A DNA stretch of 64,000 bases from a virus, in IMG/VR virus record IMGVR_UViG_3300035490_000050, positions 64,001 to 128,000 of that record. One strand, written 5' to 3'. The translations under genes and the position numbers were made by a program. The notes beneath the pieces are model-generated. The model searched no databases and was not told where the DNA came from. It saw only the letters and a list, made by a program, of their open reading frames with translations. Shown in pieces: positions 25,535 to 37,979 of this stretch (position 1 is its first letter; every line of letters starts with the position of its first letter).

Positions 25535-25618
25535 ATGCGATTCCTATTATCCAGTTCGCGCTATTGCCTCTCATCGTTGCTGAGAGCAGGCTCGCCATAT
25601 CTGGATAAAGGGATATAA
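25535..25618 (+). CDS. Attenuator leader peptide A (MRFLLSSSRYCLSSLLRAGSPYLDKGI)
   Basis: Leu/Ser/Tyr/Cys codons match the 10 downstream tRNAs; followed by antiterminator and terminator. Confidence 0.85.
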   Translation: MRFLLSSSRYCLSSLLRAGSPYLDKGI

Positions 25619-29267: not shown

Positions 29268-29345
29268 GGGGTCACCGTCTAAATGGATTTGGATACCTGA
29301 TTCTCACTCAGGAGATTGCGAGTTCGATCCTCGCTGACCCTACCA
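29268..29345 (+). tRNA. tRNA-Glu(CTC)
   Basis: Cloverleaf, CCA. Confidence 0.9.
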
Positions 29346-31569: not shown

Positions 31570-31650
31570 ATGAAGACGCGATTCCAAAACGCCAATCCAA
31601 CAGCGACGGCAACGCCGCAGGGTCATGGTGCGGAATCAGGGTCTCAGTAG
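31570..31650 (+). CDS. Attenuator leader peptide B (MKTRFQNANPTATATPQGHGAESGSQ)
   Basis: Codons 3-21 use only the nine amino acids of the 11 downstream tRNAs. Confidence 0.85.
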   Translation: MKTRFQNANPTATATPQGHGAESGSQ

Positions 31651-33355: not shown

Positions 33356-33482
33356 TTGCGTCTACTGTTGAGCGTACATGATGACTAGCTCACTCGGTAG
33401 AGCGATTCCCTTCAAAGGAATAGGTCACTGGTTCGATTCCAGTGTCATCTACTTCGGTAGATCGCTCAACGTCTTGACGCAG
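33356..33482 (+). ncRNA. Y-RNA-like tRNA mimic 1
   Basis: tRNA core (D, anticodon TCA, T arms) closed by extended stems GTTGAGCG/CGCTCAAC and TGCGTC/GACGCA; no CCA. Confidence 0.7.
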
Positions 33483-34671: not shown

Positions 34672-36165
34672 ATGGCAGAAACAGGGCTTACACGTCAAAG
34701 AATTTTGTCGGAATTGTCGAAGAGTCCACACGGCTCTTTGAAAGAGTATCTTCCTATCGGCAAACAGGCCGTTCAACAGGAAGGTGAATTTTATCAACAC
34801 ATGCTTGCCTGGGATAGGACGCATGGGCAGATTAGGGACAGCAAGGTTGCGCTTCCTGTGATCGGCTTGGCTTTTGAGAAGGATGAGGAATTACTCGACA
34901 ACAGCCTTGCTCACATCGCTCTTTTGGGGCCGCGTGAACTGGCAAGAGCATATCGGTTTGGATTGGAGATTCGTCTCCCTGGCAAGATGCGTCAGTTGCG
35001 TAGGCTTGTCGAAGACTACCTACACCAAAAGGAGCAAGACAAAGGTTGGGATCATCTGGCAATCCAGCACAGGGGTACGCTGAAGGAACTCTACTCTCTG
35101 GCGCACGCAAAGCCTGAAAAGGAGAGAACCAACGTCGTTCTCTATGGCAGGAACTTCGACAAGACAAAGGCACCGCTGCCCAAGGGATCAGTCTTTGAGG
35201 TAGTAGCAAACCTCAAGAACATGAGTCCTACGGAGGCTGCTGGTTCGATCATGAAGTACCGGATTCCTTTCCTTATCGCCATGGGCGCGTTAGGCGCAAA
35301 GGCGAAGGAGCCGGATTTGGTACTGGCTTTGATCGGAGCCATGTCTGCAACGGAGTTGACCACGAACGTCAAGATGCTGGAGAAGTTGGGCCTGAAGACG
35401 AATCCTGCGCTGCGTGGGGCATTCGACAACGCATTGGCTAAGGCGGCTACGTCGAAGAAGAATACGCTCAAGACGACTCAGGCGGTCGAGGCCGTACAGG
35501 ACGAGGGATTGAAGGAGAAGCTCCGTGGACTACAGGCAAAGCAGATAGCGGCTGCGGGTGGTCCAGACGGCGACTGGGTAATTTTAGTTGACAAATCTGG
35601 ATCGATGCACCATGCAATCGAAACTGGTTGCCATGTTGCAGGGGCGCTCACACAGTTCGTCAAAGGAAAGGTTGGGTTGATTTTCTTCGATACCTCTCCT
35701 ATGGCGGTGGACGTAACCGGCTTGTCGCTGGACCAAATCAAGAAGGCGACACGACACTTCACAGCGAACGGTGGAACATCCATCGGCTGCGGTCTGAATC
35801 GGATGCTGGTAGAGAAAGTTGCTGTGGATGGAATTGTGATCGTGTCGGACGGTGGAGACAACACTGCTCCACTATTCCATGACGTATATCCGAAGTACGC
35901 GAAATTCTGCGATAAGGATGTGCCGGTGTATTTCTACCAACTTAGCGGAGAATCGGACAAGCTGACGCCGAACATGCAACGGGCAGGAATCGAGATGACA
36001 ACATTCGATTTGCGCGGTTCAAAGCTGGACTACTACAGCATTCCGAACACGGTCAAGACGCTTCGCAGTAACCAGTACAGTTTGGTTGAGGAAATACTCT
36101 CGACCCCGCTTTTAACCCTCAACACCGTGCTCAAGGGAGCGCAGAAAGGACTGGTGACAGTCTAA
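34672..36165 (+). CDS. TROVE/Ro60-like protein with C-terminal vWA
   Basis: About 300-aa helical N-terminus (EFYQHMLAW..IRDSK) plus VDKSGSM, GGTSIG, VSDG MIDAS; Ro60-like length; next to Y-like RNAs. Confidence 0.7.
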   Translation: MAETGLTRQRILSELSKSPHGSLKEYLPIGKQAVQQEGEFYQHMLAWDRTHGQIRDSKVALPVIGLAFEKDEELLDNSLAHIALLGPRELARAYRFGLEIRLPGKMRQLRRLVEDYLHQKEQDKGWDHLAIQHRGTLKELYSLAHAKPEKERTNVVLYGRNFDKTKAPLPKGSVFEVVANLKNMSPTEAAGSIMKYRIPFLIAMGALGAKAKEPDLVLALIGAMSATELTTNVKMLEKLGLKTNPALRGAFDNALAKAATSKKNTLKTTQAVEAVQDEGLKEKLRGLQAKQIAAAGGPDGDWVILVDKSGSMHHAIETGCHVAGALTQFVKGKVGLIFFDTSPMAVDVTGLSLDQIKKATRHFTANGGTSIGCGLNRMLVEKVAVDGIVIVSDGGDNTAPLFHDVYPKYAKFCDKDVPVYFYQLSGESDKLTPNMQRAGIEMTTFDLRGSKLDYYSIPNTVKTLRSNQYSLVEEILSTPLLTLNTVLKGAQKGLVTV

Positions 36166-36464
36166 TGAATATCAACGCACTGAAGAACTTCAACGCCGAC
36201 CGTATGGACTTGGATGACATGGTAGGCTTGCTTGCGGACTGCAAGGCACTCCGCGCTGAGTACGAGGCGCTCCAGATCGAAGAGCCTGAGTATATCGACA
36301 CAACCATCAAGGCAATTCGCCGGGAGATCACATCCCGCAACGCTGACAAGATCGCGGCTCGTAAGCGTGAGCTTGCCGCACGGATCGACAGCCTCAAGAC
36401 TCCTGCACAGAAGAAGGCAGAACTTGAGAAGGAGCTTGCCAAGTTGGAAGCCGTTCCTGTCTAA
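36165..36464 (+). CDS. Small coiled-coil protein
   Basis: TAATG coupling to the TROVE-like gene. Confidence 0.75.
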   Translation: MNINALKNFNADRMDLDDMVGLLADCKALRAEYEALQIEEPEYIDTTIKAIRREITSRNADKIAARKRELAARIDSLKTPAQKKAELEKELAKLEAVPV

Positions 36465-36485: not shown

Positions 36486-36515
36486 GGGGCACAGGATAAC
36501 GTGCCCCACTTTTTT
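36486..36515 (+). terminator. Terminator of TROVE operon
   Basis: GGGGCAC-8nt-GTGCCCC followed by ACTTTTTT. Confidence 0.75.
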
Positions 36516-36518
36516 CTC

Positions 36519-36547
36519 TTGCATTCCTAATCGACCTGGGGTACAGT
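36519..36547 (+). promoter_or_regulatory. Promoter of tRNA operon C
   Basis: TTGCAT-17-TACAGT. Confidence 0.65.
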
Positions 36548-36557
36548 TTCTATAGTG

Positions 36558-36638
36558 ATGAAGAGGATCATTGGTATCACCTCTTTTCTGTTCGCCCACC
36601 CCCTTCGGCTCTCCCAAGTGTCCGGGGATGTAGGCTAA
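36558..36638 (+). CDS. Upstream leader ORF C1 (MKRIIGITSFLFAHPLRLSQVSGDVG)
   Basis: Near-leaderless start; begins AAG AGG ATC ATT GGT ATC ACC; its stop overlaps the RBS of C2. Confidence 0.5.
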   Translation: MKRIIGITSFLFAHPLRLSQVSGDVG

Positions 36639-36645
36639 GGAAAAC

Positions 36646-36732
36646 ATGCAGACGACCACCAGACGCGGGACCATAACCAGAATGACCAAGCGGGTCATTT
36701 GGGGAATAGTGCGCGAGGGTTGGGACGATTAA
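36646..36732 (+). CDS. Attenuator leader peptide C2 (MQTTTRRGTITRMTKRVIWGIVREGWDD)
   Basis: TAAGGA RBS; codons 3-23 use only the eight amino acids of the downstream tRNAs. Confidence 0.85.
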   Translation: MQTTTRRGTITRMTKRVIWGIVREGWDD

Positions 36733-36756
36733 ATCTGCAAAAAGATTGAATCTACC

Positions 36757-36782
36757 AGCCCGGTCTTAGGATCGGGCTTTTT
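36757..36782 (+). terminator. Attenuator terminator C
   Basis: AGCCCGGTC-TTAG-GATCGGGCT followed by TTTT. Confidence 0.88.
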
Positions 36783-36811
36783 GATGTTTGAAAACTGAAA
36801 CGAATAATCAT

Positions 36812-36886
36812 GCCTCGTTAAGCTAGTTGGGAAACTGTCGGTCTCCAAAGCCGAACTCAGGGGTTCAAATCCTCTACGGGGTGCCA
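36812..36886 (+). tRNA. tRNA-Trp(CCA)
   Basis: Cloverleaf, G73, CCA. Confidence 0.9.
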
Positions 36887-36891
36887 TTTTT

Positions 36892-36969
36892 GCCAGTGTA
36901 GTTCAGTCGGCTTAGAACGCTGCATTCATAACGCAGAGGTCAACAGTTCAATCCTGTTCACTGGCACCA
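36892..36969 (+). tRNA. tRNA(CAT), elongator Met or Ile2
   Basis: Cloverleaf, CCA; identity cannot be settled by eye. Confidence 0.88.
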
Positions 36970-36973
36970 AGTT

Positions 36974-37071
36974 GGAGCGGCGGCGCATAATTCACTGGCG
37001 GTATCGGACAGCTAAGACTACCGAGACGTGCAGAACTCACCGAAAGGTTAGCCGTTGCAGTGGGCCGCTCC
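36974..37071 (+). ncRNA. Unknown structured RNA within tRNA operon C
   Basis: Closing stem GGAGCGGC/GCCGCTCC with internal CACTG/CAGTG and a GAAA hairpin. Confidence 0.45.
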
Positions 37072-37158
37072 GAAAGTTCACGGCTGTAAAGCCTATACCG
37101 ATGGCGCAAGGCCATCCTGCCGTGATTAAGTTTCGAGTCCTAGTGGGGGCACCATAGT

Positions 37159-37245
37159 GGAACCGTGGCCTAGTCTGGTTTTGGGCACCCGGCTCTTACC
37201 CGGCGCAGAAATGCAACGCAGGTTCAAATCCTGCCGGTTCCACCA
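37159..37245 (+). tRNA. tRNA-Lys(CTT) with long variable arm
   Basis: Cloverleaf plus GCA-GAAA-TGC V-arm. Confidence 0.88.
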
Positions 37246-37255
37246 ACACTTTTAC

Positions 37256-37341
37256 GGAGTCGTACTCGAATTGGATGCAGAGACCTGACTTTTAATCAGC
37301 GGGGTAACCCAATGGGGGTTCGAGTCCCCCCGGCTCCACCA
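37256..37341 (+). tRNA. tRNA-Lys(TTT) with long variable arm
   Basis: Cloverleaf plus GGG-GTAA-CCC V-arm. Confidence 0.88.
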
Positions 37342-37346
37342 GTTAC

Positions 37347-37423
37347 GCGGCGGTATTCCCCTCGTCTTCTAAACGAGTAAGGATAATTGGAATATGTGAG
37401 TTCGATCCTCACCCGCTGCTCCA
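37347..37423 (+). tRNA. tRNA-Arg(TCT), D-loop-relocated topology
   Basis: Intact acceptor, anticodon and T arms; 7-nt 5' linker; 18-nt post-anticodon segment. Confidence 0.8.
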
Positions 37424-37427
37424 TTTT

Positions 37428-37504
37428 GGTCCCGTACCGGCCATGTTTCCTAAACATGTAACCGTAAGTGGATGATGTCAGTTCGAGCCTGACCGGGACT
37501 TCCA
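37428..37504 (+). tRNA. tRNA-Arg(CCT), D-loop-relocated topology
   Basis: Same geometry, 77 nt. Confidence 0.8.
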
Positions 37505-37508
37505 TTTT

Positions 37509-37585
37509 GCTGCCGTACCAGCCGCGCCTCCGAAGCGCGATACTGTAACTGAATGATGCAGGTTTGAGTCCTGTCGGCAGCGCCA
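37509..37585 (+). tRNA. tRNA-Arg(CCG), D-loop-relocated topology
   Basis: Same geometry, 77 nt. Confidence 0.8.
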
Positions 37586-37590
37586 GTTTT

Positions 37591-37668
37591 GGGAACGTGG
37601 GCCAGCGGCGACGCCACCTGTCCTACAAACAGGTATTACCGGAAGTTCGAGTCTTCCCGTTCCCACCA
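37591..37668 (+). tRNA. tRNA-Val(TAC), C33 variant
   Basis: CCTGT-CCTACAA-ACAGG arm, CCA. Confidence 0.87.
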
Positions 37669-37744
37669 AGTTCGGAGTCCTACGGTTAGAAGCCGTGGGA
37701 GGTTACAACGAGCAGATGCAACACCTGCTACTCTGGGATGATTT

Positions 37745-37818
37745 GCCGATGTAGCTCAGTGATAGAGTGCCGCACTGGTATTGCGGTGACGAGGGTTTGA
37801 TTCCCTCCTTCGGCCCCA
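37745..37818 (+). tRNA. tRNA-Thr(GGT)
   Basis: Cloverleaf, CCA. Confidence 0.9.
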
Positions 37819-37819
37819 T

Positions 37820-37897
37820 GGCGGTCTAGCTCACATTGAGAAGAGCGCAGTCCTGATAAGACTGAGGCACCCAGTTCAATTCTGGGGACCGCCACCA
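37820..37897 (+). tRNA. tRNA-Ile(GAT)
   Basis: Cloverleaf, CCA. Confidence 0.92.
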
Positions 37898-37903
37898 TAG
37901 TTT

Positions 37904-37979
37904 GCGGGAGTAACTCAGCGGCTAGAGTGTCAGCCTTCCAAGCTGTTCGTCGAGGGTTCGAGTCCCTTCTCCCGCTCCA
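37904..37979 (+). tRNA. tRNA-Gly(TCC)
   Basis: Cloverleaf, U73, CCA. Confidence 0.93.

What the first reader, a model, noticed from the sequence alone, without database searches (positions are those of the whole stretch)
36558..36782. Attenuator C with two leader ORFs in tandem
C2 codons 3-23 encode only T, R, G, I, M, K, V and W, the eight amino acids of operon C. Antiterminator GGGTTGG pairs with CCAGCCC, which overlaps the terminator arm. C2 lacks AGG and ATC, and these occur at the start of an upstream ORF C1 (AAG AGG ATC ATT GGT ATC ACC). The C1 stop TAA forms part of C2's RBS (TAAGGA), suggesting a coupled two-stage sensor. AAA is in neither leader. The two ATA codons hint that the CAT tRNA may be Ile2.
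Basis: partly seen in the sequence, partly recalled or inferred. Interest (0 to 1): 0.78.

Follow-up and report, generated by a model that had tools for sequence, protein, structure and literature searches.

The report
Leader-peptide attenuator gating phage tRNA operon
A tiny gene written in the codons that the downstream phage tRNAs read, wired to a switchable transcription stop, probably lets this phage make that tRNA set only when ribosomes read those codons slowly; the proposed second, upstream tiny gene is peculiar to this one genome and is probably not part of the switch.

Summary
C2 (36646-36732) is very probably the leader ORF of a trp/thr-style ribosome-mediated attenuator in front of tRNA operon C (36812-37979). 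Its 21-codon run of T/R/G/I/M/K/V/W is the longest such run in all six frames of the 136-kb genome. The promoter, leader ORF, antiterminator, terminator and tRNA layout recurs in 111 related phage loci (61 distinct leader ORFs). An analogous layout occurs in the isolated Tunturiibacter phage Tunturi_5, where the operon also holds tRNA-Asp/Glu and the leader holds Asp/Glu codons. Leaders A and B of the same window mirror their own operons. The evidence is computational only. C1 is not supported as a second sensor. It lies in a 91-nt insertion with no homolog in 160 other loci. The closest relative has the promoter abutting the C2 start. Only 2 of 6 insert-bearing relatives with a mapped promoter have any ORF spanning the insert. 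The Ile2 hint is not supported: a 90%-identical CAT tRNA co-occurs with tRNA-Ile(UAU) in a relative. This scan has noted such tRNA attenuators before on other phage DNA. My six literature searches found no published account.

The parts
36486..36507 (+). Intrinsic terminator of the upstream gene (36165-36464). It shows that the leader unit starts a new transcript.
   Evidence: 7-bp stem, 6 GC pairs, T-run; sequence
36519..36547 (+). Sigma-70-like promoter, TTGCAT-17 nt-TACAGT. It is conserved in relatives as TTGCA(A/T)-17-TAC(A/T)(G/C)T.
   Evidence: inference from consensus, no transcription start data
36555..36645 (+). 91-nt lineage-specific insertion between the promoter and the C2 start. 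It holds ORF C1 (36558-36638) and brings the SD AAGGA (36637-36641). Its C-rich part (36592-36607) can pair with antiterminator arm 2.
   Evidence: no homolog in 160 other loci or elsewhere in the genome; the closest relative L133 lacks it; folds
36646..36732 (+). Leader ORF C2 (28 codons). The regulatory codons are 3-23 (36652-36714).
   Evidence: homologs
36680..36700 (+). Conserved hairpin GAAUGACC-AAGCG-GGUCAUUU inside the leader. It is a possible RNA polymerase pause hairpin (inference).
   Evidence: L005 keeps it as CCAUC-AAGCG-GAUGG
36717..36761 (+). Antiterminator: GGGUUGG (36717-36723) pairs with CCAGCCC (36755-36761), enclosing a small hairpin (36732-36747).
   Evidence: MFE when the terminator 3' arm is absent; family-wide analysis
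36757..36788 (+). Intrinsic terminator (attenuator): 9-bp stem AGCCCGGUC/GAUCGGGCU, loop UUAG, tail UUUUGAUGUU.
36812..37979 (+). tRNA operon C: Trp CCA, CAT, 189 nt unassigned, Lys CTT, Lys TTT, three Arg-like (TCT, CCT, CCG), Val TAC, Thr GGT, Ile GAT, Gly TCC.

Best explanation
C2 is the leader ORF of a multivalent ribosome-mediated transcription attenuator that gates tRNA operon C. Transcription starts at the TTGCAT/TACAGT promoter. A ribosome translates C2. If it reaches the stop at 36730-36732, it covers GGGUUGG (36717-36723), so the terminator 36757-36778 forms and transcription ends before tRNA-Trp. If the ribosome is slowed within codons 3-20, GGGUUGG stays free. Those codons are ACC, AGA, ATA, ATG, AAG, CGG, ATT, TGG and GGA, which are the codons read by the tRNAs encoded downstream. 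The free GGGUUGG pairs with CCAGCCC and removes 5 nt of the terminator's 5' arm, and RNA polymerase reads into the tRNA genes. The element would thus work as a homeostat or alarm for the supply of exactly the tRNAs the operon encodes. The anatomy, its non-randomness and its conservation are shown. Translation, stalling and read-through are inferred. C1 is most likely an incidental ORF, or at most a lineage-specific one, in a 91-nt 5' insertion. It opens at the position where the leader itself starts in relatives. It is not a conserved part of the switch.
For: (1) The layout is promoter, short ORF, antiterminator, terminator, tRNAs, and the upstream gene has its own terminator. (2) The run of 21 in-set residues is the longest in six frames of the genome. 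Codon-level scores are at the extreme of 272,784 windows. (3) Leaders A and B of the same window mirror their own operons and not each other's. In-set residues: A 15 of 26 for set A, 8 for B, 7 for C; B 2, 21 of 25, 9; C2 0, 15, 23 of 27. Leader B is the top-scoring window genome-wide for its codon set. In A and B only about 10 and 17 nt separate the terminator from the first tRNA, which leaves no room for a separate promoter. (4) The untranslated RNA folds better than shuffles: z = -5.7 for C, -4.4 for B, -2.8 for A. (5) Conservation. All 5 loci found through the neighbouring VWA protein that reach operon C carry a homologous leader. A motif scan gave 111 loci with tRNAs downstream, 61 distinct leader ORFs and a conserved tRNA order. 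(6) Codons outside the search motif are held at the synonymous level among the 40 leaders of 23 codons: AAA 39 of 40, ATA 38, AGA 37, ATG 38, GTG 37. Each is the Watson-Crick cognate of an operon tRNA. (7) A hairpin plus T-run was found in 70 of 72 distinct sequences, with 24 different 5' arms. The arm after the stop pairs with its own terminator flank better than with others' (-16.4 vs -13.9 kcal/mol; 1 of 10,001 permutations). The sequences are related, so this is not a true probability. In the column count 89.4% of cells are paired, against 33-56% when the partner is slid. (8) An SD (AAGGA) precedes the leader only where an insertion separates it from the promoter. Otherwise the start lies 6-7 nt (13 sequences) or 19-21 nt (38 sequences) after the -10 element. 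(9) In Tunturi_5 the 49-codon gp308 plus a terminator precedes Trp-Asp-Met-Met-Lys-Val-Lys-Arg-Arg-Glu-Glu-Arg-Arg-Val-Ile-Gly. 33 of 48 codons are cognate, and the leader includes 7 Asp and 3 Glu codons that C2's regulatory part lacks.
Against: There are no experimental data: no transcription start, no ribosome footprints and no termination assay. True compensatory change in the antiterminator is scarce: 5 cells in 3 of 8 pairs, not above shuffles. Support there is conservation plus the slide control. Most relatives were retrieved with a motif inside the leader, so the core TKRVIWG is conserved by construction. The relatives are also not independent. Leaders of the largest clade also hold codons with no operon tRNA (CAG CAG, TTC/CTC, CAC, TGT/TCT). 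In the window 4 of 21 regulatory codons (ACG, CGC x2, GTC) are not cognate to operon C under simple wobble rules, and no ATA-reading tRNA was detected. Variable sites are not 3-periodic (18/20/21), so there is no classical coding signature. A conserved TTTGA(A/C)AA motif follows the terminator, and a promoter-like site lies at 36781-36808. RNA-library contigs show neither starts nor ends.
Confidence: 0.7

Rival explanations
1. This is the first reader's reading: a coupled two-stage sensor. C1 is translated from the near-5'-terminal GTG/ATG and samples AGG and ATC, which are absent from C2. Its termination inside TAAGGA controls C2 initiation, so both ORFs set read-through.
For: C1 starts 7-10 nt after the -10 element, where relatives start their leader. 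Its first 7 codons after ATG are all in the operon's amino-acid set, which holds for 17 of 4025 ORF starts in the genome. Its stop is 7 nt from the C2 ATG, inside the SD. C1 codons 12-17 overlie a C-rich tract that pairs with antiterminator arm 2 in the MFE fold. L005 has a non-homologous 25-codon ORF that also spans its insert and overlaps the leader ATG.
Against: The insert has no homolog in 160 other loci or elsewhere in the genome. The closest relative, L133, with the same terminator stem arms (the loop differs by one base) and the same region 2, has the -10 element, then 6 nt, then ATG. Of the 6 insert-bearing sequences with a mapped promoter, only the window and L005 have a spanning ORF. 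L118, L137 and L065 have none, and L155 has an in-frame extension. C1 codons 9-26 are unrelated to the operon set, and C1 overall scores 12 of 25. The C1/C2 nucleotide resemblance is not above shuffles (33% reach it). The C1 start lies in a 7-bp hairpin.
Confidence: 0.12
2. The small ORF with its terminator is an independent short gene: a conserved micropeptide or a small RNA. The tRNAs are transcribed from another promoter, and the codon resemblance is a by-product of peptide composition.
For: The peptide core ITRMTKRVIWG is strongly conserved. A conserved TTTGA(A/C)AA motif and a promoter-like site (36781-36808) lie after the terminator.
Against: Three unrelated peptides in one genome each track their own downstream tRNA set. 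Tunturi_5's leader gains Asp/Glu codons together with tRNA-Asp/Glu. In A and B there is no room for a promoter after the terminator. The predicted start of the 36781-36808 site would fall inside tRNA-Trp, and in relatives the motif abuts the tRNA with no -10 element. The segment after the stop is complementary to the terminator flank throughout the family.
Confidence: 0.08
3. The terminator/antiterminator switch is real but is not read by a ribosome. A protein or an RNA (for example a tRNA) binds the conserved hairpin AUGACC-AAGCG-GGUCAU or the G-rich arm.
For: Nucleotide-level conservation of the hairpin includes synonymous sites. L005 shows a compensatory variant. Variation is not 3-periodic.
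Against: An open frame with a start codon, and a stop placed at or just before arm 2, is kept in all 61 distinct leaders despite indels. An SD appears only when the start is far from the promoter. The codon-to-anticodon match has no role in this model. No T-box or other Rfam family matched.
Confidence: 0.1

Closest known systems
Multivalent leader-peptide attenuators of enterobacterial amino-acid operons (thrL sensing Thr+Ile; ilvL/ivbL sensing Ile/Val/Leu; trpL, hisL, pheL). Recalled from textbook knowledge; Rfam Trp_leader was the only one tested here.
   Same: A promoter-proximal short ORF is followed by alternative 1:2, 2:3 and 3:4 hairpins. The terminator lies directly before the regulated genes. 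The stop codon is placed so that a terminating ribosome masks arm 2. Several different regulatory codons are present.
   Different: The regulated genes are tRNAs, not biosynthetic enzymes. Each regulatory codon matches a different encoded tRNA, about one codon per anticodon, rather than runs of one codon. The element therefore reports tRNA supply rather than supply of one amino acid. It lies in a phage. There is no sequence membership: Trp_leader scored 24 bits against a gathering score of 41.
pheST (Phe-tRNA synthetase) attenuator with leader pheM. Recalled, not checked here.
   Same: Leader-peptide attenuation is applied to a gene of the translation apparatus rather than to biosynthesis.
   Different: It controls a synthetase through Phe codons only, and it is not a tRNA operon.
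Leaderless polycysteine short ORFs acting as attenuators in mycobacteria (bioRxiv 10.1101/834739; I saw the search listing and the start of the abstract only).
   Same: The leader ORF starts at or within a few nt of the transcript's 5' end, as in 13 relatives with 6-7 nt between the -10 element and the start.
   Different: It senses cysteine for cysteine-related operons, in bacteria, and it is not linked to tRNA genes.
Anabaena long tRNA array (trn operon), silent until translational stress and repressed by TrcR (PMC8421152, PMC10272220; listing and start of the abstracts only).
   Same: An accessory tRNA operon is switched on when translation is impaired.
   Different: Per those abstracts, control is by a transcriptional repressor protein. 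There is no codon-matched leader ORF plus terminator.
Tandem leader ORFs: mgtM/mgtP of Salmonella mgtCBR (PMC3641672) and ermBL/ermBL2 (PMC8274638). Listing and start of the abstracts only.
   Same: Two short ORFs lie in one leader; this is the model for the C1+C2 idea.
   Different: There both ORFs are reported to act in regulation. Here C1 is not conserved.

Membership tests
Ribosome-mediated (leader-peptide) transcription attenuator | A short ORF with a usable start lies just downstream of a promoter and upstream of the regulated genes. | tested here: met
   C2 has the SD AAGGA 5 nt before its ATG. Relatives have the start 6-7 or 19-21 nt after the -10 element. The promoter is a consensus match only.
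Ribosome-mediated (leader-peptide) transcription attenuator | The ORF is enriched in regulatory codons tied to the product of the regulated genes. | tested here: met
   21 of 21 residues are in the set, the longest such run in the genome. 15-17 of 21 codons are cognate. Leaders A and B, and Tunturi_5, each track their own operon.
Ribosome-mediated (leader-peptide) transcription attenuator | An intrinsic terminator lies between the leader ORF and the regulated genes. | tested here: met
   Terminator at 36757-36778 plus a T-tract. Found in 70 of 72 distinct relatives.
Ribosome-mediated (leader-peptide) transcription attenuator | A mutually exclusive antiterminator exists whose 5' arm is masked by a ribosome at the stop codon. 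| tested here: met
   GGGUUGG, 7-13 nt before the stop, pairs with CCAGCCC, which overlaps the terminator arm. Family-wide, 89.4% of cells are paired against at most 56% when slid. Own pairing beats cross pairing. Masking by the ribosome is inferred from geometry.
Ribosome-mediated (leader-peptide) transcription attenuator | An anti-antiterminator (1:2) forms in untranslated RNA. | tested here: inconclusive
   In the window CGACC pairs with GGUUG (5 bp) in the MFE, or the insert's C-tract pairs with arm 2. In relatives CAGACC at codons 2-4 is complementary to GGUCUG; I read this by eye and did not quantify it.
Ribosome-mediated (leader-peptide) transcription attenuator | Read-through depends on translation of the leader and on supply of the cognate charged tRNA. 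| not testable with these tools
   This needs reporter, Term-seq or Ribo-seq experiments. RNA-library contigs cannot show it.
Rfam Trp_leader (RF00513) and other curated leader families | A score at or above the gathering threshold. | tested here: not met
   24.0 bits against 41, E = 0.046, at 36715-36785. Nothing but tRNAs was found at gathering level.
T-box riboswitch | A match to the T-box model (specifier and antiterminator bulge). | tested here: not met
   No hit.
Tandem-leader attenuator (two functional short ORFs) | Both ORFs are conserved among relatives. | tested here: not met
   C1 and its insert are absent from 160 loci. A spanning upstream ORF is present in 2 of 6 insert-bearing sequences.
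tRNA-Ile2 (CAU, lysidine) | Ile2-type identity rather than elongator Met. | tested here: inconclusive
   The tRNA is 90% identical to the L050 CAT tRNA, which co-occurs with tRNA-Ile(UAU). The nearest annotated phage hit is labelled tRNA-Met. The E. coli TilS determinants I recall (C4-G69, C5-G68, G27.U43) are absent, but these are not universal.

The most novel reading that the evidence does not exclude
The attenuators are alarms for tRNA damage rather than simple homeostats. When host anticodon nucleases or phage-induced turnover deplete Lys, Arg, Thr, Ile or other tRNAs, ribosomes stall on the codon-matched leader. The phage then transcribes replacement tRNAs. In this genome several of these have remodelled bodies (D-arm-less Arg, long-variable-arm Lys) that could escape the nuclease. 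An RNA ligase and a Ro-like protein are encoded beside them. In this lineage the C1 insertion would add an extra gate, through its C-tract pairing with arm 2 and through translational coupling.
Probability: 0.2. Interest if true: 0.9.

Novelty: new variant of a known kind. Interest (0 to 1): 0.7.

Why it matters
If read-through responds to decoding speed, this is a ribosome-based sensor of the tRNA pool that controls tRNA genes themselves. My searches found no such regulatory logic described for tRNA genes. It would explain how large phages dose their tRNA sets. It would link phage tRNA arrays to host tRNA-targeting defences. It would also offer compact, codon-specific sensors for synthetic biology. 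The family is large: 111 loci from wetland and soil metagenomes. An analogous unit sits in a cultured phage-host pair (Tunturi_5 and Tunturiibacter psychrotolerans), so the idea can be tested directly.

Tried and rejected
Searching GenBank phages with 5 kb around the site found only tRNA-sized matches and no close relative.

The 17-nt promoter pattern in viral contigs gave only the L005 contig plus two unrelated hits.

BLAST and nhmmer of the C1 insert against all held loci and the genome found nothing.

I considered C1 as a partial duplicate of the C2 core (AAGAGGATCATT vs AAGCGGGTCATT). I rejected this because the similarity is not above shuffles.

Codon-position periodicity of variation in the leaders was uninformative (18/20/21).

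A column-wise covariation count was possible only for the antiterminator. Terminator loops of 4 and 5 nt shift the columns, so I did not count the terminator that way.

The 189-nt stretch 36970-37158 has no Rfam match at E <= 10 and no fold signal (z = -0.1). Its function is left open.

The identity of the CAT tRNA could not be settled.

RNA runs: four metatranscriptome runs hold parts of the stretch as Logan contigs. One identical 159-nt contig spans 36767-36925, and one identical 181-nt contig spans 36878-37058. Contigs of relatives cover leader parts. Contigs show no starts, ends or strand, and DNA may be present, so I draw nothing from cover or from gaps.

I did not use complex prediction, structure prediction or the protein homology searches, because the question is about RNA and codons.

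Supplementary files of papers were not consulted.

Full report
WHAT IS THERE

The window is 64001-128000 of a 136,454-bp viral record rated complete. All 31 tRNA genes that ARAGORN finds in the genome lie in the window on the + strand. They sit among HNH endonuclease genes, an RNA ligase gene and a VWA/Ro-like gene.

The finding lies between a 99-codon gene (36165-36464) and tRNA-Trp (36812). That gene has its own terminator at 36486-36507.

- C1 is 36558-36638.
- C2 is 36646-36732.
- C2 codons 3-23 use only T, R, G, I, M, K, V and W.
- AGG and ATC are absent from C2 and present in C1.
- AAA is in neither ORF.
- The C1 stop lies inside TAAGGA.
- GGGTTGG (36717-36723) is complementary to CCAGCCC (36755-36761), which overlaps the 5' arm of a 9-bp terminator (36757-36778 plus a T-tract).

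One caveat concerns arginine. It belongs to the operon only through three Arg-tRNA-like genes (37346-37586). ARAGORN and the Rfam tRNA model do not call them. They carry TCT, CCT and CCG anticodon loops in the same order as the canonical Arg tRNAs of relatives, but they lack a D arm and have about 13 extra nt after the anticodon arm.

IS IT MORE THAN CHANCE?

I scanned the whole genome in six frames.
- The 21-residue run is the longest run of that eight-amino-acid set anywhere; the next longest is 17. The set makes up 0.397 of sense codons.
- With codon sets derived from the operon's anticodons by simple wobble rules, C2 scores 15 of 21. Only 34 of 272,784 windows reach that score.
- If ATA is counted, C2 scores 17 of 21. 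Only 8 windows reach that score, and 4 of them are C2 itself.

The two other tRNA clusters of the window have the same layout: promoter-like hexamers, a 26-27-codon ORF, and a terminator 10-17 nt before the first tRNA. Leader A is MRFLLSSSRYCLSSLL... before Leu x4, Cys, Ser x3 and Tyr. Leader B is MKTRFQNANPTATATPQGHGA... before Asn, Gln x2, Gly, Thr x2, His, Ala, Phe, Pro and Arg.

The composition matrix is diagonal:

| Leader | Set A | Set B | Set C |
|---|---|---|---|
| A (26 residues) | 15 | 8 | 7 |
| B (25 residues) | 2 | 21 | 9 |
| C2 (27 residues) | 0 | 15 | 23 |

Leader B is the top-scoring window in the genome for its own codon set. The untranslated leaders fold better than shuffles: z = -5.7 (C), -4.4 (B) and -2.8 (A).

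RELATIVES

No close GenBank phage exists. A search with the neighbouring VWA protein gave 9 viral loci at 65-78% identity. All 5 loci that extend to operon C carry a homologous leader and terminator. A leader motif then retrieved more viral loci and 104 metagenome stretches, of which 80 were fetched.

In all, 111 loci have tRNAs downstream. They hold 61 distinct leader ORFs and 74 distinct leader-to-terminator sequences. The tRNA order is conserved: Trp, (CAT), Ile-TAT, Lys-CTT, Lys-TTT, Arg-TCT, Arg-CCT, Arg-CCG, Val-TAC, Thr-GGT, Ile-GAT, Gly-TCC.

The motif search fixes the codons ACC AAG CGG GTC ATT TGG GGA by construction. The informative positions lie outside it. Among the 40 leaders of 23 codons the counts are AAA 39, ATA 38, AGA 37, ATG 38 and GTG 37. 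These codons are held at the synonymous level, and each is the Watson-Crick cognate of one operon tRNA.

Against the model, that clade also keeps CAG CAG, TTC/CTC, CAC and TGT/TCT, for which the operon has no tRNA. Variable sites are not 3-periodic (18/20/21).

THE SWITCH

A hairpin plus T-run was found in 70 of 72 distinct sequences, with 24 different 5' arms. The segment at or just after the stop (GGGUCUG, GAGGGU, GGGUUGG, GAGAGUCUGA and others) is complementary to the flank and first bases of each genome's own terminator arm.
- Own pairs average -16.4 kcal/mol and cross pairs -13.9. One of 10,001 permutations reaches the observed mean. The sequences are related, so this is not a true probability.
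- On an 18-sequence alignment, 89.4% of cells pair, against 33-56% when the partner is slid. Only 5 cells in 3 of 8 pairs show changes on both sides, which is no more than shuffles give.
- The pairing is therefore conserved, but it is only weakly proven by covariation.

In the window, folding up to the terminator's 5' arm gives the antiterminator as the MFE. Adding the 3' arm gives the terminator.

The geometry fits the classical logic. A ribosome at the stop (36730) would cover arm 2. A ribosome held at codons 3-20 would not. This step is inferred.

START-CODON LOGIC

In 13 distinct relatives the leader start lies 6-7 nt after the -10 element, which is effectively leaderless. In 38 it lies 19-21 nt after. 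An AAGGA Shine-Dalgarno sequence appears only in the few sequences where a 50-100-nt insertion separates the promoter from the leader. This pattern is what one expects if the ORF has to be translated.

INDEPENDENT LINEAGE

In Tunturiibacter phage Tunturi_5 (PP885688.1) the annotated hypothetical gp308 (49 codons) is followed by a terminator. The operon that follows is Trp, Asp, Met, Met, Lys, Val, Lys, Arg, Arg, Glu, Glu, Arg, Arg, Val, Ile, Gly. Of its 48 codons, 33 are cognate to those anticodons. They include 7 Asp, 3 Glu and 6 CGC codons. The regulatory part of C2 has no Asp or Glu codon, and the window's operon C has no tRNA-Asp or tRNA-Glu. Leader composition therefore follows operon content across lineages.

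C1

C1 lies in a 91-nt insertion (36555-36645).
- The closest relative, L133, has the same region 2 and the same terminator stem arms (the loop differs by one base). It reads TACAGT-TTCTTT-ATGCAGACGACC. The window reads TACAGT-TTCTAT-[insert]-ATGCAGACGACC.
- The insert has no homolog in the 160 other loci or elsewhere in the genome.
- Other relatives carry different, mutually unrelated inserts at the same site. Of the 6 with a mapped promoter, only the window and L005 have an ORF running from the transcript start to the leader start. L118, L137 and L065 have none, and L155 has an in-frame extension.

Some points favour C1:
- Its first seven codons are all in the operon's set, which is true of 17 of 4025 ORF starts in the genome.
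- It opens where leaderless leaders open.
- It ends in C2's SD.
- It overlies a C-rich tract that pairs with arm 2 in the MFE fold.

These points are post hoc and rest on a single sequence. The resemblance of C1's start to the C2 core is not above shuffles. I rate a functional C1 sensor at about 0.12.

THE CAT tRNA

The CAT tRNA is 90% identical (70 of 78) to the CAT tRNA of L050, whose operon also has tRNA-Ile(TAT). Many relatives carry both. The leader keeps an internal ATG that a Met tRNA would serve. In the window no ATA-reading tRNA was detected. The 189 nt at the place where relatives hold tRNA-Ile(TAT) match no Rfam family and show no fold signal. The Ile2 idea is therefore possible but unsupported. 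The two ATA codons look like a legacy of a lost tRNA-Ile(UAU).

EXPRESSION DATA

Four metatranscriptome runs hold parts of the stretch, but only as contigs. They cannot show starts, ends or strand, and I draw nothing from them.

COMPARISON WITH WHAT IS KNOWN

The logic is that of multivalent leader-peptide attenuators (thrL, ilvL; recalled). The difference is that the genes controlled are tRNAs, and the codons are matched roughly one-to-one to the encoded anticodons.

The element is not a member of any Rfam leader family. Trp_leader scored 24 bits against a gathering score of 41.

Six full-text searches found no paper describing such control of tRNA genes. The nearest items, seen only as listings and starts of abstracts, are:
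- leaderless polycysteine attenuators of mycobacteria (10.1101/834739);
- the stress-induced Anabaena tRNA operon under the repressor TrcR (PMC8421152, PMC10272220);
- the tandem leaders of mgtCBR and ermB (PMC3641672, PMC8274638).

Much of the older phage T5 tRNA-gene literature is probably outside the searched library, so I could not check it. In PMC4810235 I read passages only; the two 'attenuat' hits were unrelated entries in its reference list.

I treated those notes as leads, not as support.

VERDICT

C2 with the antiterminator and terminator is very probably a leader-peptide attenuator of tRNA operon C (confidence 0.7, computational evidence only). It is a new variant of a known kind of control. 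The tandem-sensor role of C1 and the Ile2 reading are not supported.

Noticed in passing
window 37346-37586: Three Arg-tRNA-like genes carry anticodon loops TCT, CCT and CCG and end in CCA. They lack the D arm (about 15 nt missing) and have about 13 extra nt after the anticodon arm. ARAGORN and the Rfam tRNA model miss them. Relatives have canonical Arg tRNAs at the same positions.
   Followed up: partly
window 37159-37341: Both tRNA-Lys genes (CTT and TTT) are 86-87 nt long, with a 3-bp stem-loop in the variable region (ARAGORN drawing). Relatives' Lys tRNAs are mostly 75-79 nt long.
   Followed up: no
window 36970-37158: 189 nt between the CAT tRNA and tRNA-Lys have no Rfam match and no fold signal. 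Relatives hold tRNA-Ile(TAT) in this interval. A metatranscriptome contig of a relative continues from this sequence into a tRNA-Ile(TAT)-like 5' end.
   Followed up: partly
window 36785-36800 and the same place in relatives: A conserved motif (C)TCTTTGA(A/C)AA(T) lies directly after the terminator T-tract and before tRNA-Trp. Its role is unknown. It could be a processing signal, or a -35-like box with no visible -10 element.
   Followed up: no
L005 7880-7970, with L065, L131, L137 and L123: A conserved element of about 70 nt (AGCCTGGGA..GGCTAGAGCGGGAAACCCCTCGA..AAGGA) is inserted between the promoter and the leader start in five relatives. No conserved ORF spans it, so it may be a structured 5' UTR module.
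   Followed up: partly
window 33379-33452; L003 10002-10077; L005 8452-8537: tRNAs with stop-codon anticodons occur in these operons: TCA in the window (called SeC by ARAGORN), CTA in L003 and L010, and TTA in L005 and L065. They are candidate suppressor tRNAs.
   Followed up: no
window 25535-25618 and 31570-31650; L003 669-752; L002 52-126: Leaders A and B mirror their own tRNA operons. Leader B homologs in two relatives keep the N/Q/G/T/H/A/F/P/R composition.
   Followed up: partly
L163 4011-4220 (PP885688.1, about 251573-251780): gp308 of the isolated phage Tunturi_5 looks like a codon-matched leader ORF with a terminator before a 16-tRNA operon. That would make it an experimentally tractable example.
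   Followed up: partly
window 29268-29342: Rfam calls a tRNA here (46.6 bits) that ARAGORN does not list. It lies directly after tRNA-Glu.
   Followed up: no
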